Below are positions 2,703-8,322 of a DNA stretch of 64,000 nt, piece after piece. Within the stretch, counting starts at the first letter, position 1. Each line of letters starts with the position of its first letter. Made by a program: the position numbers. The stretch comes from Octopus sinensis (taxonomy: Eukaryota): the NCBI RefSeq assembly GCF_006345805.1, contig NC_043001.1, positions 75,330,001-75,394,000 of the forward strand. Direction: 5' to 3'.

Positions 2703-2762
<60 letters not shown>

Positions 2763-5700
2763 AAAGGGCTTAGTAAAATAAATTACTTTGCCGCATACTG
2801 AACTCGTTAGAAATAGCAGCTAAAAAAACTATTTCTAACACTTAAAGAAAACCTCTCTCGTATAGTGCTTGCTCAATTCAACCCAAGAAAGTATGAGGGT
2901 AGAGACATTAAAAAATCAAATGCAAAGGTTATTTGAGTACGTACGTTTCAAGATTAGCCAAGTTCGACCCTTCTCTCATCAGCTCAGAATGCCCTTGTTT
3001 GAGTTTGAAAACACTGAAAATGGGAGCATACCCTTTCGGCTTGTTATCGCTTCTGAAGATCTGTTCCCAACTAACAGTGCTAGCTAACTCAAATATGCAA
3101 GAGAAAAATTTCTGTTCTCCCCTTTCCACCAGCGTGGGTTAAAATCAGCAAACACTATCCTTTTTTTTTCGGTAAAATCCAAGACAATTAAGTAGAGAGA
3201 GATGAATTATAATTTCAACAATTGAGGGTAAAATTAATTAATTATTAATCAATTTCACCAAGTATTCAGTATGCAAAGGGACCATTTAAGGCAAATTCAA
3301 ATTATTACATTATATAAAAGGGCTTAGTAAAATAAATTACTTTGCCGCATACTGAACTCGTTAGAAATAGCAGCTAAAAAAACTATTTCTAACACTTAAA
3401 GAAAACCTCTCTCGTATAGTGCTTGCTCAATTCAACCCATTCTGTTCTCCCCTTTCCACCAGCGTGGGTTAAAATCAGCAAACACTATCCTTTTTTTCGG
3501 TAAAATCCAAGACAATTAAGTAGAGAGAGATGAATTATAATTTCAACAATTGAGGGTAAAATTAATTAATTAATTAATCAATTTCACCAAGTATTCAGTA
3601 TGCAAAGGGACCATTTAAGGCAAATTCAAATTATTACATTATATAAAAGGGCTTAGTAAAATAAATTACTTTGCCGCATACTGAACTCGTTAGAAATAGC
3701 AGCTAAAAAAACTATTTCTAACACTTAAAGAAAACCTCTCTCGTATAGTGTTCCCAACTAACAGTGCTAGCTAACTCAAATATGCAAGAGAAAAATTTCT
3801 GTTCTCCCCTTTCCACCAGCGTGGGTTAAAATCAGCAAACACTATCCTTTTTTTTTTTCGGTAAAATCCAAGACAATTAAGTAGAGAGAGATGAATTATA
3901 ATTTCAACAATTGAGGGTAAAATTAATTAATTAATTAATCAATTTCACCAAGTATTCAGTATGCAAAGGGACCATTTAAGGCAAATTCAAATTATTACAT
4001 TATATAAAAGGGCTTAGTAAAATAAATTACTTTGCCGCATACTGAACTCGTTAGAAATAGCAGCTAAAAAAACTATTTCTAACACTTAAAGAAAACCTCT
4101 CTCGTATAGTGCTTGCTCAATTCAACCCAAGAAAGTATGAGGGTAGAGACATTAAAAAATCAAATGCAAAGGTTATTTGAGTACGTACGTTTCAAGATTA
4201 GCCAAGTTCGACCCTTCTCTCATCAGCTCAGAATGCCCTTGTTTGAGTTTGAAAACACTGAAAATGGGAGCATACCCTTTCGGCTTGTTATCGCTTCTGA
4301 AGATCTGTTCCCAACTAACAGTGCTAGCTAACTCAAATATGCAAGAGAAAAATTTCTGTTCTCCCCTTTCCACCAGCGTGGGTTAAAATCAGCAAACACT
4401 ATCCTTTTTTTTTCGGTAAAATCCAAGACAATTAAGTAGAGAGAGATGAATTATAATTTCAACAATTGAGGGTAAAATTAATTAATTAATTAATCAATTT
4501 CACCAAGTATTCAGTATGCAAAGGGACCATTTAAGGCAAATTCAAATTATTACATTATATAAAAGGGCTTAGTAAAATAAATTACTTTGCCGCATACTGA
4601 ACTCGTTAGAAATAGCAGCTAAAAAAACTATTTCTAACACTTAAAGAAAACCTCTCTCGTATAGTGCTTGCTCAATTCAACCCAAGAAAGTATGAGGGTA
4701 GAGACATTAAAAAATCAAATGCAAAGGTTATTTGAGTACGTACGTTTCAAGATTAGCCAAGTTCGACCCTTCTCTCATCAGCTCAGAATGCCCTGTTTGA
4801 GTTTGAAAACACTGAAAATGGGAGCATACCCTTTCGGCTTGTTATCGCTTCTGAAGATCTGTTCCCAACTAACAGTGCTAGCTAACTCAAATATGCAAGA
4901 GAAAAATTTCTGTTCTCCCCTTTCCACCAGCGTGGGTTAAAATCAGCAAACACTATCCTTTTTTTCGGTAAAATCCAAGACAATTAAGTAGAGAGAGATG
5001 AATTATAATTTCAACAATTGAGGGTAAAATTAATTAATTAATTAATCAATTTCACCAAGTATTCAGTATGCAAAGGGACCATTTAAGGCAAATTCAAATT
5101 ATTACATTATATAAAAGGGCGATAACAAGCGATAACAAGCCGAAAGGGTATGCTCCCATTTTCAGTGTTTTCAAACTCAAACAAGGGCATTCTGAGCTGA
5201 TGAGAGAAGGGTCGAACTTGGCTAATCTTGAAACGTACGTACTCAAATAACCTTTGCATTTGATTTTTTAATGTCTCTACCCTCATACTTTCTTGGGTTG
5301 AATTGAGCAAGCACTATACGAGAGAGGTTTTCTTTAAGTGTTAGAAATAGTTTTTTTAGCTGCTATTTCTAACGAGTTCAGTATGCGGCAAAGTAATTTA
5401 TTTTACTAAGCCCTTTTATATAATGTAATAATTTGAATTTGCCTTAAATGGTCCCTTTGCATACTGAATACTTGGTGAAATTGATTAATTAATTAATTAA
5501 TTTTACCCTCAATTGTTGAAATTATAATTCATCTCTCTCTACTTAATTGTCTTGGATTTTACCGAAAAAAAAAGGATAGTGTTTGCTGATTTTAACCCAC
5601 GCTGGTGGAAAGGGGAGAACAGAAATTTTTCTCTTGCATATTTGAGTTAGCTAGCACTGTTAGTTGGGAACAGATCTTCAGAAGCGATAACAAGCCGAAA

Positions 5701-8288
5701 GGGTATGCTCCCATTTTCAGTGTTTTCAAACTCAAACAAGGGCATTCTGAGCTGATGAGAGAAGGGTCGAACTTGGCTAATCTTGAAACGTACGTACTCA
5801 AATAACCTTTGCATTTGATTTTTTAATGTCTCTACCTCATACTTTCTTGGGTTGAATTGAGCAAGCACTATACGAGAGAGGTTTTCTTTAAGTGTTAGAA
5901 ATAGTTTTTTTAGCTGCTATTTCTAACGAGTTCAGTATGCGGCAAAGTAATTTATTTTACTAAGCCCTTTTATATAATGTAATAATTTGAATTTGCCTTA
6001 AATGGTCCCTTTGCATACTGAATACTTGGTGAAATTGATTAATTAATTAATTAATTTTACCCTCAATTGTTGAAATTATAATTCATCTCTCTCTACTTAA
6101 TTGTCTTGGATTTTACCGAAAAAAAAAGATATGTTTTGCTGATTTTAACCCACGCTGGTGGAAAGGGGAGAACAGAAATTTTTCTCTTGCATATTTGAGT
6201 TAGCTAGCACTGTTAGTTGGGAACAGATCTTCAGAAGCGATAACAAGCCGAAAGGGTATGCTCCCATTTTCAGTGTTTTCAAACTCAAACAAGGGCATTC
6301 TGAGCTGATGAGAGAAGGGTCGAACTTGGCTAATCTTGAAACGTACGTACTCAAATAACCTTTGCATTTGATTTTTTAATGTCTCTACCCTCATACTTTC
6401 TTGGGTTGAATTGAGCAAGCACTATACGAGAGAGGTTTTCTTTAAGTGTTAGAAATAGTTTTTTTAGCTGCTATTTCTAACGAGTTCAGTATGCGGCAAA
6501 GTAATTTATTTTACTAAGCCCTTTTATATAATGTAATAATTTGAATTTGCCTTAAATGGTCCCTTTGCATACTGAATACTTGGTGAAATTGATTAATTAA
6601 TTAATTAATTTTACCCTCAATTGTTGAAATTATAATTCATCTCTCTCTACTTAATTGTCTTGGATTTTACCGAAAAAAAGGATAGTGTTTGCTGATTTTA
6701 ACCCACGCTGGTGGAAAGGGGAGAACAGAAATTTTTCTCTTGCATATTTGAGTTAGCTAGCACTGTTAGTTGGGAACAGATCTTCAGAAGCGATAACAAG
6801 CCGAAAGGGTATGCTCCCATTTTCAGTGTTTTCAAACTCAAACAAGGGCATTCTGAGCTGATGAGAGAAGGGTCGAACTTGGCTAATCTTGAAACGTACG
6901 TACTCAAATAACCTTTGCATTTGATTTTTTAATGTCTCTACCCTCATACTTTCTTGGGTTGAATTGAGCAAGCACTATACGAGAGAGGTTTTCTTTAAGT
7001 GTTAGAAATAGTTTTTTTAGCTGCTATTTCTAACGAGTTCAGTATGCGGCAAAGTAATTTATTTTACTAAGCCCTTTTATATAATGTAATAATTTGAATT
7101 TGCCTTAAATGGTCCCTTTGCATACTGAATACTTGGTGAAATTGATTAATTAATTAATTAATTTTACCCTCAATTGTTGAAATTATAATTCATCTCTCTC
7201 TACTTAATTGTCTTGGATTTTACCGAAAAAAAGGATAGTGTTTGCTGATTTTAACCCACGCTGGTGGAAAGGGGAGAACAGAAATTTTTCTCTTGCATAT
7301 TTGAGTTAGCTAGCACTGTTAGTTGGGAACAGATCTTCAGAAGCGATAACAAGCCGAAAGGGTATGCTCCCATTTTCAGTGTTTTCAAACTCAAACAAGG
7401 GCATTCTGAGCTGATGAGAGAAGGGTCGAACTTGGCTAATCTTGAAACGTACGTACTCAAATAACCTTTGCATTTGATTTTTTAATGTCTCTACCCTCAT
7501 ACTTTCTTGGGTTGAATTGAGCAAGCACTATACGAGAGAGGTTTTCTTTAAGTGTTAGAAATAGTTTTTTTAGCTGCTATTTCTAACGAGTTCAGTATGC
7601 GGCAAAGTAATTTATTTTACTAAGCCCTTTTATATAATGTAATAATTTGAATTTGCCTTAAATGGTCCCTTTGCATACTGAATACTTGGTGAAATTGATT
7701 AATTAATTAATTAATTTTACCCTCAATTGTTGAAATTATAATTCATCTCTCTCTACTTATTGTCTTGGATTTTACCGAAAAAAAGGATAGTGTTTGCTGA
7801 TTTTAACCCACGCTGGTGGAAAGGGGAGAACAGAAATTTTTCTCTTGCATATTTGAGTTAGCTAGCACTGTTAGTTGGGAACAGATCTTCAGAAGCGATA
7901 ACAAGCCGAAAGGGTATGCTCCCATTTTCAGTGTTTTCAAACTCAAACAAGGGCATTCTGAGCTGATGAGAGAAGGGTCGAACTTGGCTAATCTTGAAAC
8001 GTACGTACTCAAATAACCTTTGCATTTGATTTTTTAATGTCTCTACCCTCATACTTTCTTGGGTTGAATTGAGCAAGCACTATACGAGAGAGGTTTTCTT
8101 TAAGTGTTAGAAATAGTTTTTTTAGCTGCTATTTCTAACGAGTTCAGTATGCGGCAAAGTAATTTATTTTACTAAGCCCTTTTATATAATGTAATAATTT
8201 GAATTTGCCTTAAATGGTCCCTTTGCATACTGAATACTTGGTGAAATTGATTAATTAATTAATTAATTTTACCCTCAATTGTTGAAAT

Positions 8289-8322
<34 letters not shown>

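What the first reader, a model, noticed from the sequence alone, without database searches (positions are those of the whole stretch)
2760..8290. Array of nine hammerhead ribozymes in a 553-bp tandem repeat: candidate retrozyme / circular-RNA system
Seen: each complete non-coding unit contains CTGATGA - helix II - GAAAC-gtac-GTA closed by helix I (tgag/ctca). Predicted + strand cleavage follows 5241, 5796, 6349, 6902, 7455 and 8007, which would give 552-555-nt monomers. Known: minimal type I hammerheads occur in Penelope-like element pLTRs and in tandem non-LTR retrozymes of metazoans, whose transcripts self-cleave to monomers that circularise. Inference: this is a young non-autonomous retrozyme-like family, possibly copied by rolling reverse transcription of a circular RNA using PLE enzymes. 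As I recall, the unit is longer than typical animal retrozyme monomers. I cannot tell whether this family is already catalogued.
Basis: partly seen in the sequence, partly recalled or inferred. Interest (0 to 1): 0.9.

Follow-up and report, generated by a model that had tools for sequence, protein, structure and literature searches.

The report
Hammerhead-ribozyme repeat array, retrozyme-like
A 5.5-kb block of nearly identical 553-bp non-coding repeats, each carrying a Penelope-type hammerhead self-cleaving RNA motif, looks like a young animal retrozyme inserted head-to-head into a TA microsatellite; this is a known kind of element and its activity is untested.

Summary
Window 2757-8292 is built from a ~553-bp unit (98.9-100% identical copies).

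It is not one head-to-tail array. There are two inverted arms: 2757-5120 reads on the minus strand (3 HHRs, two units with the HHR deleted) and 5127-8292 on the plus strand (6 HHRs). They meet 5'-to-5' and both 3' ends abut (TA)n.

The motif has the full catalytic core, a 4-bp helix I, a long helix II and a palindromic helix III (ACGTACGT). These are the traits published for Penelope-like-element (PLE) and retrozyme hammerheads that act as dimers. A strict descriptor hit 1 of 1500 simulated windows. A two-unit transcript folds into the double hammerhead unforced. The monomer is strongly structured (z = -6.8).

PLE remnants and a second, unrelated HHR pair lie in the same window.

Against: no Rfam hammerhead model matches even at E<=10, and pair 10.1-11.1 is G.U, not G-C. 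Cleavage, circles and dispersal are untested.

Verdict: new member of a known kind (animal non-LTR retrozyme).

The parts
2757..8292 (.). Whole repeat block built from the ~553-bp unit (two inverted arms)
   Evidence: blastn of unit 6350-6902 against the window: all hits lie in 2757-8292, at 98.9-100% identity; repeat families
2757..5120 (-). Left arm, sense on the minus strand. Read 5'->3' on the minus strand: unit 169-553 | 1-553 | 1-429 | 71-381 | 53-553 | 1-181. Three HHRs; two junctions lack the HHR
5121..5126 (.). Head-to-head junction filler GATAAC. With the next 4 nt it forms a 10-nt local duplication of GATAACAAGC
5127..8292 (+). Right arm, sense on the plus strand: unit 439-553 | five complete units (555, 553, 553, 553, 552 nt) | 1-285. 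Six HHRs
5193..5245 (+). HHR copy, predicted cleavage after 5241
5748..5800 (+). HHR copy, predicted cleavage after 5796
6301..6353 (+). Reference HHR copy. Helix I 5' strand 6301-6304; core CTGATGA 6305-6311; helix II 6312-6337; GAA 6338-6340; palindromic helix III ACGTACGT 6341-6348; H17 = A at 6349 (cleavage after it); helix I 3' strand 6350-6353
6854..6906 (+). HHR copy, predicted cleavage after 6902
7407..7459 (+). HHR copy, predicted cleavage after 7455
7959..8011 (+). HHR copy, predicted cleavage after 8007
4733..4785 (-). HHR copy on the minus strand, predicted cleavage between 4737 and 4736
4178..4230 (-). HHR copy on the minus strand, predicted cleavage between 4182 and 4181
2934..2986 (-). 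HHR copy on the minus strand, predicted cleavage between 2938 and 2937
2706..2762 (.). (TA)n microsatellite at the left outer end. The unit ends inside its own TATATA (unit 176-181)
8289..8322 (.). (TA)n microsatellite at the right outer end. The unit ends inside its own ATTATA (unit 280-285)

Best explanation
The block is a young, non-coding, hammerhead-bearing tandem repeat of the animal non-LTR retrozyme type, that is, a non-autonomous relative of Penelope-like elements (PLEs).

Proposed mechanism:
(1) Each arm is transcribed as a multimer. No promoter was identified; this step is inferred.
(2) Neighbouring ribozymes pair through the palindrome ACGUACGU into a double hammerhead and cut after GUA. 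This gives 552-555-nt monomers with 5'-OH and 2',3'-cyclic phosphate ends. The fold is shown in silico; the chemistry follows from established hammerhead knowledge; cleavage itself is not shown.
(3) In the monomer, nt 1-7 pair with nt 501-508. This holds the two ends together for a host RNA ligase, which makes a ~553-nt circle. The lone ribozyme is disfavoured in the circle because helix III is only 2 bp. This step is inferred by analogy with PMC7229834.
(4) The locus itself looks like the product of reverse transcription primed from both sides of a break in a (TA)n microsatellite. Priming would occur on UAUA stretches of a circular or multimeric template ('twin priming'), most likely by PLE reverse transcriptase/endonuclease. 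That would give two multimer arms with 3' ends outward and 5' ends joined in the centre. This step is inferred from the junctions.
For: Motif:
- All core positions are present (C3-A9, G12-A14, A15.1-U16.1, H17 = A).
- Helix I is 4 bp, extended by 6 bp after an internal loop. Helix II is 4+5 bp. Helix III is 2 bp or an 8-nt palindrome.
- These match the published PLE minimal-HHR traits: helix I of 4-5 bp, an enlarged helix II and a small palindromic helix III (PMC4209133).
- Descriptor hits in simulated windows: 14 of 300 (general) and 1 of 1500 (palindromic).

Dimer:
- Cofolding two 76-nt copies gives an intermolecular 8-bp helix III with the cores left unpaired. The dimer is 11.4 kcal/mol better than two monomers.
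- The unconstrained MFE of the 685-nt tandem transcript 6241-6925 already contains that helix.

Monomer:
- + strand MFE -157.9 kcal/mol, z = -6.77, 0 of 100 shuffles as good. - strand z = -3.85.
- 61% paired as a circle; helices I and II of the HHR are part of the global MFE.
- Non-coding; GC 34.5%.

Context:
- PLE remnants. RVT_1 E = 0.0015 on an X read-through. A Cx4Cx2C linker and a GIY-YIG-like segment at 36330-36674 on the minus strand. A plus-strand fragment whose GIY-YIG passes the Pfam cutoff. The two fragments are 45-48% identical.
- A second, unrelated HHR pair at 34728-35118 has the same head-to-head layout beside (TA)n.

Junctions:
- Both sense 3' ends are outermost. They end in two of the unit's three TATA-containing stretches, directly against (TA)n.
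- The 5' ends (unit 169 and 439) meet at a 6-10-nt duplication.
- PLEs are reported to form tandem/inverted insertions, often with an inverted 5'-truncated copy, and to prefer microsatellites including (TA)n (PMC8557442).
Against: - No Rfam hammerhead model (or any other ribozyme family) matches: not at gathering on the window, nor at E<=10 on 2400-8800, nor on a 111-nt slice.
- Pair 10.1-11.1 is G.U, whereas PMC4209133 lists G10.1-C11.1 as highly conserved. [quoted passage not shown]
- The isolated 81-nt region folds no better than shuffles (z = 0.17).
- Metazoan minimal HHRs cleaved poorly in vitro.
- All nine copies are identical, so there is no covariation or conservation signal. The copies are one duplicated observation.
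- The unit occurs only at this locus within the window, and nothing links it by sequence to the PLE remnants.
- Unit differences are almost all homopolymer-length or single-base deletions. These could be sequencing errors, so the array's real age and structure are uncertain.
- Tandem growth by unequal crossing-over needs no RNA step (the preprint's own model).
Confidence: 0.68

Rival explanations
1. This is a DNA-level minisatellite. A hammerhead-bearing PLE terminal fragment landed here once. It was then amplified locally by unequal crossing-over or replication slippage, and part of the array was inverted by a DNA rearrangement. The ribozyme is a passenger and no circular RNA or retrotransposition of the unit is involved.
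For: - The unit is seen at one locus only in 64 kb.
- The copies are near-identical, as expected from recent unequal exchange.
- The two internal deletions have 0-2 nt of microhomology, which is typical of DNA repair.
- The 2026 preprint itself proposes local amplification of a PLE terminal sequence followed by unequal crossover.
- The G.U at 10.1-11.1 and the Rfam miss fit a decaying motif.
Against: - Both outer ends are sense 3' ends lying in TA microhomology against (TA)n, and the arms start at different unit positions (169 and 439). A twin-primed insertion predicts this; a simple inversion inside an array does not.
- A-run lengths, read outward from the centre, are 7, 9, 11, 7, 9 on the left and 9, 8, 7, 7, 7 on the right. 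The arms are therefore not mirror copies.
- The same head-to-head layout beside (TA)n recurs at two unrelated elements in the window.
- The strong strand-asymmetric RNA structure of the unit (z = -6.77 against -3.85) suggests selection at the RNA level.
Confidence: 0.2
2. The inverted structure, or part of it, is an assembly artefact: a fold-back chimeric long read or mis-joined repeat copies. The true locus would then be a simple head-to-tail array.
For: - PLE-type tandem/inverted insertions are said to cause assembly problems (PMC8557442).
- Differences between units are mostly homopolymer-length changes and single-base deletions, which are typical of long-read error.
Against: - The arms are not mirror images. 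They have different inner breakpoints, two different internal deletions in the left arm only, and different A-run patterns.
- Both outer ends join (TA)n cleanly.
- There are no Ns in the window.
Confidence: 0.06
3. The hammerhead-like motif is a chance match inside an ordinary tandem repeat.
For: No Rfam hit at E<=10. The general descriptor hits 14 of 300 simulated windows. The copies are not independent.
Against: - The palindromic descriptor hits 1 of 1500 simulated windows.
- The motif sits in a tandem repeat, which is where double hammerheads work.
- A second, independent HHR with a palindromic helix III and PLE remnants lie in the same window.
- The dimer fold appears unforced.
Confidence: 0.04

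Closest known systems
Metazoan non-LTR retrozymes (Cervera & de la Pena 2020, PMC7229834; read: abstract and Results part 1)
   Same: [quoted passage not shown] No LTR, primer-binding site, polypurine tract or ORF. GC below 50%. Monomer predicted to be highly self-paired. Ribozymes that work as dimers are described for some families.
   Different: The unit is 553 bp, against ~170-400 nt RNAs and 150-450-bp repeats in that paper. It does fall within the 51-972 bp of the 2026 preprint. Here the array is two inverted arms inside a (TA)n microsatellite; the main texts of both retrozyme papers contain no mention of inverted arrays or microsatellite targets. No expression or cleavage data exist for this locus.
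Minimal hammerheads of Penelope-like element pseudo-LTRs (Cervera & de la Pena 2014, PMC4209133; read: parts 1-2 of the whole text)
   Same: Helix I of 4-5 bp, enlarged helix II, tiny palindromic helix III, predicted action as dimers. Pairs of HHRs 100-700 bp apart on opposite strands are reported there, like the pair at 34728-35118.
   Different: The array motif has G.U rather than the conserved G10.1-C11.1, and no single bulged nucleotide after A9. Helix II is longer (26 nt, interrupted). The motif sits in a non-coding 553-bp repeat, not next to a PLE ORF, and shows no detectable similarity to the PLE remnants in the window.
pDo500 satellite of Dolichopoda cave crickets (PMC2837043; read: passages found by search)
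   Same: Roughly 500-bp tandem repeat with a ~49-nt hammerhead. Multimeric transcripts are processed to monomers. Single- and double-hammerhead modes are discussed.
   Different: pDo500 is a high-copy satellite (about 5% of one genome) conserved across species. Here only one short locus (about 10 unit equivalents) is seen, and copy number elsewhere is unknown. No sequence comparison was possible.
Plant LTR retrozymes (PMC4918200; seen only in a search listing, and as described in PMC7229834)
   Same: Non-autonomous, hammerhead-processed, circular-RNA-forming retroelements of 600-1000 nt.
   Different: The plant elements carry type III hammerheads in LTRs, with a primer-binding site, a polypurine tract and 4-bp target-site duplications. 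None of that applies here.
Twin-priming inversions of LINE-1 insertions (recalled from general knowledge; no paper read, only a search listing)
   Same: Two reverse-transcription products primed from the two sides of one target break, giving inverted segments with 3' ends outward and an internal junction with microhomology or filler.
   Different: There the template is a linear polyadenylated mRNA and each segment is less than one unit long. Here each arm is a multimer of 4-6 units, which implies a circular or concatemeric template and a PLE-type enzyme.

Membership tests
Hammerhead ribozyme, type I | Conserved catalytic core: CUGANGA, GAA, A15.1-U16.1, and H17 that is not G | tested here: met
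   CTGATGA / GAA / A...T / A in all nine copies
Hammerhead ribozyme, type I | Three helices around the core, with helix I open | tested here: met
   Helix I 4 bp (+6 bp after an internal loop), helix II 4+5 bp, helix III 2 bp in cis or 8 bp in a dimer
Hammerhead ribozyme, type I | G10.1-C11.1 closing pair of helix II (called highly conserved in PMC4209133) | tested here: not met
   G.U wobble in all nine copies. The second HHR at 34989 has G-C
Hammerhead ribozyme, type I | Match to an Rfam hammerhead covariance model | tested here: not met
   No hammerhead family at gathering or at E<=10. The two other HHR-like motifs in the window also give none, so the models may simply not cover this minimal type
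Hammerhead ribozyme, type I | Site-specific self-cleavage | not testable with these tools
   Needs in vitro transcription of dimer constructs
PLE-type minimal/dimeric hammerhead | Short helix III with a palindromic sequence that allows a double hammerhead | tested here: met
   ACGTACGT. The dimer helix forms in the cofold and in the unconstrained 685-nt tandem fold
PLE-type minimal/dimeric hammerhead | One nucleotide between A9 and 10.1 | tested here: not met
   No register with a single bulge gives a G-C closing pair
Animal non-LTR retrozyme | At least 2 consecutive tandem units, each with a complete type I HHR whose MFE is below -5 kcal/mol (operational criterion of the 2026 preprint) | tested here: met
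   Six consecutive HHRs in the right arm. The 53-nt motif has MFE -6.5 kcal/mol. I used my own descriptor, not rnabob
Animal non-LTR retrozyme | Non-coding; no LTR, primer-binding site or polypurine tract; GC below 50% | tested here: met
   Longest stop-free stretch is 76 codons in a trimer; GC 34.5%; no tRNA-like gene. Primer-binding site and polypurine tract were not searched for specifically
Animal non-LTR retrozyme | Monomer RNA predicted to be highly self-paired | tested here: met
   z = -6.77; 61% paired as a circle
Animal non-LTR retrozyme | Expressed as linear and circular RNA of unit length | not testable with these tools
   No transcriptome available
Animal non-LTR retrozyme | Dispersed copies at many loci (mobility) | not testable with these tools
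   Only one locus in the window. No eukaryotic genome, Repbase or Dfam search was available
Animal non-LTR retrozyme | Co-occurrence with PLEs and sequence relatedness to a PLE pseudo-LTR | tested here: inconclusive
   PLE remnants are present in the window, but the unit shows no similarity to them

The most novel reading that the evidence does not exclude
The locus is a genomic fossil of one integration event. A circular (or concatemeric) retrozyme RNA was reverse-transcribed by rolling circle from both 3'-OH ends of a PLE-endonuclease break in a (TA)n microsatellite, primed on the RNA's UAUA stretches. This would give two multimeric arms joined head-to-head. If so, it would be direct structural evidence for how animal retrozymes are integrated, and evidence that they use the PLE insertion pathway. 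As a side effect, such a locus could produce long hairpin RNA able to feed small-RNA silencing of the family.
Probability: 0.3. Interest if true: 0.65.

Novelty: new member of a known kind. Interest (0 to 1): 0.42.

Why it matters
Animal retrozymes are known, but how they are copied back into DNA is still open. The 2026 preprint says the mechanism remains to be elucidated and offers local unequal crossover as the source of the tandems.

This locus shows a feature absent from the main texts of the two retrozyme papers I searched for it. No paper in the library holds both 'retrozyme' and 'head-to-head'. The feature is two multimer arms with 3' ends outward, each ending in TA microhomology against a (TA)n target. 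This is the insertion signature published for PLEs.

If genome-wide copies repeat that pattern, it would tie retrozyme mobilisation to PLE machinery by junction anatomy, not only by co-occurrence. It would also support more-than-unit reverse transcription of circles. Otherwise the finding is an ordinary addition to a catalogued class.

It also shows that Rfam hammerhead models miss this minimal type entirely, which matters for automated annotation.

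Tried and rejected
Rfam. No hammerhead or other ribozyme family matched in any of these searches: gathering thresholds on the whole window; E<=10 on 2400-8800; on 6270-6380; on 34700-35140; on 48200-48420. The sub-threshold miRNA-like hits come from long perfect hairpins, not from miRNA genes.

Deletions as reverse-transcriptase jumps across a stem. 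Rejected. In the circular MFE, unit 53 pairs with 356, 71 pairs with 338, 381 is unpaired and 429 pairs with 463. The deletion end-points are therefore not structural neighbours.

Fold-back or mirror duplication. Rejected as the simple explanation. The inner breakpoints differ (169 against 439). A-run lengths outward from the centre are 7, 9, 11, 7, 9 against 9, 8, 7, 7, 7. The deletions are in one arm only.

Similarity of the unit to anything else in the window, including the PLE remnants and the second HHR element. None at E<=1e-3 or at E<=0.05 with word size 7. The three-way alignment of the HHR regions shares little beyond the core.

Hairpin 8312-8670 as a truncated copy of the PLE 3' end. 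Only about 45 nt at 76-80% identity in A-rich sequence. This is too weak to use as evidence.

Pfam on nine short PLE ORF pieces gave nothing relevant. PDB sequence searches with the RT read-through and the endonuclease piece also gave nothing relevant. RVT_1 on the read-through stays below the curated cutoff (18.7 against 29.6 bits).

tRNA-like or Pol III origin: no tRNA in the window.

Relaxed HHR descriptor. Two further hits outside the array, at 48324 and 35568 on the minus strand. The expectation is 0.31 hits per simulated window, so neither is significant by itself.

Not checked:
- Any eukaryotic genome, Repbase, Dfam or nt search; raw reads; transcriptomes. The species was not determined.
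The bacterial/archaeal, phage, plasmid and E. coli collections were not used because they cannot answer the question.
- Supplements were closed. The preprint's family tables and the HHR alignments of PMC4209133 (which include arthropod and shrimp PLE hammerheads) might already list this family.

Full report
WHAT IS THERE. The window has no N. It is an AT-rich, microsatellite-laden eukaryotic sequence (106 TRF rows).

blastn of one cleavage-to-cleavage unit (6350-6902, 553 nt) against the window finds copies only in 2757-8292, at 98.9-100% identity.

The block is two inverted arms:
- The right arm (5127-8292) is in plus orientation: unit 439-553, five complete units of 555, 553, 553, 553 and 552 nt, then unit 1-285.
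- The left arm (2757-5120) is in minus orientation. Read 5'->3' on the minus strand it is unit 169-553, a complete 555-nt unit, 1-429, 71-381, 53-553 and 1-181.
- Two left-arm junctions therefore lack 194 and 224 nt, and each deletion includes the ribozyme.
- Six bases (5121-5126) fill the centre and form a 10-nt local duplication with the next four bases.

An identical 49-nt hammerhead motif occurs nine times. Three are on the - strand, with cleavage after 4737, 4182 and 2938.

TRF missed the 553-bp period because its longest period in this tool is 500.

THE RIBOZYME MOTIF. Every invariant hammerhead position is present: CUGAUGA, GAA, A15.1-U16.1 and H17 = A.
- Helix I is UGAG/CUCA. In the local fold it is extended by six more pairs after a 5x5 internal loop.
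- Helix II is 26 nt long: 4 bp, an internal loop, 5 bp and a tetraloop.
- Helix III is only A-U and C-G around GUAC, so the 8-nt stretch ACGUACGU is a perfect palindrome.

Cervera and de la Pena (PMC4209133, parts 1-2 read) describe metazoan PLE hammerheads in the same terms: helix I of 4-5 bp, an enlarged helix II, a tiny palindromic helix III, and action as dimers.

Tests of the dimer:
- Two 76-nt copies cofold into an intermolecular 8-bp helix III with helix I formed in trans and the cores free. This is 11.4 kcal/mol better than two monomers.
- The unconstrained MFE of a 685-nt transcript carrying two neighbouring ribozymes (6241-6925) already contains that inter-ribozyme helix.

Chance. 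My general type I descriptor hit 14 of 300 first-order-Markov simulated windows. The descriptor that also requires a palindromic helix III hit 1 of 1500. The real window holds two unrelated families that pass both. I added the palindrome rule after seeing the motif, although it is a published hallmark. The nine copies are one motif duplicated.

POINTS AGAINST THE RIBOZYME.
No Rfam hammerhead family, and no other ribozyme family, matches at gathering, at E<=10 on 2400-8800 or on a 111-nt slice.
- The other two hammerhead-like motifs in the window are missed as well. The models may not cover this minimal type, but I have no validated positive control.
- The closing pair of helix II is G.U, where PMC4209133 reports a highly conserved G10.1-C11.1. 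The usual single bulged base after A9 is absent.
- The 81-nt region alone folds no better than shuffles (z = 0.17). This fits a ribozyme that needs a partner, but it is no support.
- Metazoan minimal hammerheads cleaved poorly in vitro.
- Because all copies are identical, there is no covariation evidence.

THE UNIT AS AN RNA.
- The + strand monomer has MFE -157.9 kcal/mol against -120.8 +/- 5.5 for shuffles (z = -6.77, 0 of 100 as good). The - strand gives z = -3.85.
- Folded as a circle it is 61% paired, with 23 G.U among 169 pairs. Helices I and II of the ribozyme belong to the global MFE. Nt 1-7 pair with 501-508, so the cleaved ends are held side by side.
- GC is 34.5%. The longest stop-free stretch in a trimer is 76 codons. 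No tRNA-like gene is present.
- These are the properties listed for animal non-LTR retrozymes in PMC7229834.
- The array also meets the operational 'active' criterion of the 2026 preprint: at least 2 consecutive units with a complete HHR and an MFE below -5 kcal/mol. Here the 53-nt motif gives -6.5 kcal/mol.
- A unit length of 553 bp is above the 150-450 bp of the 2020 paper. It is inside the 51-972 bp of the preprint and close to the ~500-bp pDo500 hammerhead satellite of cave crickets.

CONTEXT IN THE WINDOW.
- On the minus strand, 38199-37402 reads as a reverse transcriptase when three in-frame stops are set to X. The match to RVT_1 is weak (E = 0.0015, below the cutoff). By eye the frame shows an FDV..LY..IP motif and a YLDD motif, which I assign from recalled RT motif knowledge.
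- This is followed at 36674-36330 by a Cx4Cx2C linker and a GIY-YIG-like segment.
- A plus-strand fragment at 39938-40626 is 45-48% identical to that linker and endonuclease. Its GIY-YIG domain passes the Pfam cutoff.
- RT followed by GIY-YIG is the canonical PLE order (PMC8557442). The two fragments lie head-to-head.
- At 34728-35118 a 99% inverted repeat carries a second, unrelated hammerhead on each arm, with palindromic helix III ACATATGT and a G-C closing pair. The plus copy is complete (cleavage after 35061). The minus copy lacks one A of GAAA. (TA)n lies on its left.
- PMC4209133 reports such pairs of PLE hammerheads 100-700 bp apart on opposite strands.

HOW THE LOCUS WAS PROBABLY MADE (inference).
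- The sense 3' end of each arm is the outer end, and each stops inside one of the unit's three TATA-containing stretches (unit 176-181 and 280-285), directly against (TA)n (2706-2762 and 8289-8322).
- The sense 5' ends, at different unit positions (169 and 439), meet in the centre at a short duplication.
- This is the geometry expected if both 3'-OH ends of a break in a (TA)n tract primed reverse transcription on UAUA stretches of a template longer than one unit, and the two cDNAs were then joined.
- Craig et al. (PMC8557442, passages read) describe for PLEs partial tandems, an inverted 5'-truncated copy at the 5' end, a bias for microsatellites including (TA)n, and target-site duplications that cannot be discerned.
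- The arms are not mirror images (A-run lengths 7, 9, 11, 7, 9 against 9, 8, 7, 7, 7; deletions in one arm only). This argues against a fold-back artefact or a simple palindromic duplication.
- I could not show that the internal deletions are template jumps. Their end-points are not neighbours in the predicted structure.
- The comparison with LINE-1 twin priming rests on recall.

RIVALS. Local amplification by unequal crossover of a single PLE-derived fragment, followed by a DNA inversion, remains possible. It is the model favoured in the preprint's discussion. The unit's presence at only one locus in 64 kb and the near-identity of the copies fit it. An assembly artefact and a chance motif are less likely, for the reasons above. 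Many of the differences between units are homopolymer or single-base deletions, which could be sequencing error.

VERDICT. The retrozyme reading is the best explanation, but it rests on sequence and predicted folds only. It is a new member of a known kind. The most interesting aspect is the head-to-head, 3'-ends-out, (TA)n-embedded architecture. The main texts of the two retrozyme papers do not mention it. No paper in the library holds both 'retrozyme' and 'head-to-head'. The three papers that hold both 'Penelope-like' and 'twin priming' concern mammalian elements, judging by their titles and abstracts.

Whether the family is already catalogued could not be checked. No eukaryotic repeat or genome database was available and supplements were closed.

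Noticed in passing
window 34728-35118: A 99% inverted repeat (arms 34728-34916 and 34929-35118) beside (TA)n. It carries a second, unrelated PLE-type hammerhead on each arm. The plus copy is complete (core at 34989, cleavage after 35061, helix III ACATATGT, G-C closing pair). The minus copy lacks one A of the GAAA box.
   Followed up: partly
window 8312-8670: A long hairpin (arms about 170 nt, 96% complementary) lies between two (TA)n tracts, right next to the array. It causes sub-threshold miRNA-like Rfam hits (mir-4679, 56 bits against a gathering score of 88). Its outer ~45 nt are weakly similar (76-80%) to 35469-35522 near the PLE 3' end. It may be another head-to-head truncated insertion.
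   Followed up: partly
window 36330-39835 (-) and 39822-40626 (+): Two Penelope-like element remnants lie head-to-head. The minus-strand copy has RT, a Cx4Cx2C linker and a GIY-YIG-like segment, broken by in-frame stops and frameshifts. The plus-strand copy is 5'-truncated, and its GIY-YIG domain passes the Pfam cutoff.
   Followed up: partly
window 48288-48327 (-): A minimal-hammerhead-like motif: CTGATGA, one bulged base, a 6-bp helix II with a G-C closing pair, GAAA, and a 3-bp helix I. It lies about 125 nt upstream of a (TA)n tract on its own strand, as expected for the 3' end of a PLE-type insertion. The relaxed descriptor expects 0.31 hits per window by chance. No Rfam hit.
   Followed up: partly
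window 35535-35571 (-): A hammerhead-like motif with the U3-A8 core variant (TTGACAA ... GAAA), about 100 nt from the 3' end of the minus-strand PLE remnant. It is within the chance expectation of the relaxed descriptor.
   Followed up: no
window 30267-31610 (-) and 52368-53624 (+): Other retroelement remnants: an ORF with an endonuclease/exonuclease/phosphatase domain just below the Pfam cutoffs (LINE-like), and an ORF with a zf-RVT domain above the cutoff.
   Followed up: no
window 10860-10911: A short interstitial run of CCCTAA (TTAGGG-type telomere-like) repeats, 9 copies.
   Followed up: no
window 21495-21812: A diverged inverted repeat (159-nt arms, 77% complementary, no spacer) centred on a short TA run. 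It has no hammerhead core.
   Followed up: no
window 12748-15628, 17530-17785, 31160-31566: Very long (TA)n/(AT)n tracts (250-400 bp each) and many other microsatellites. Such tracts are the reported preferred targets of some PLE clades.
   Followed up: no
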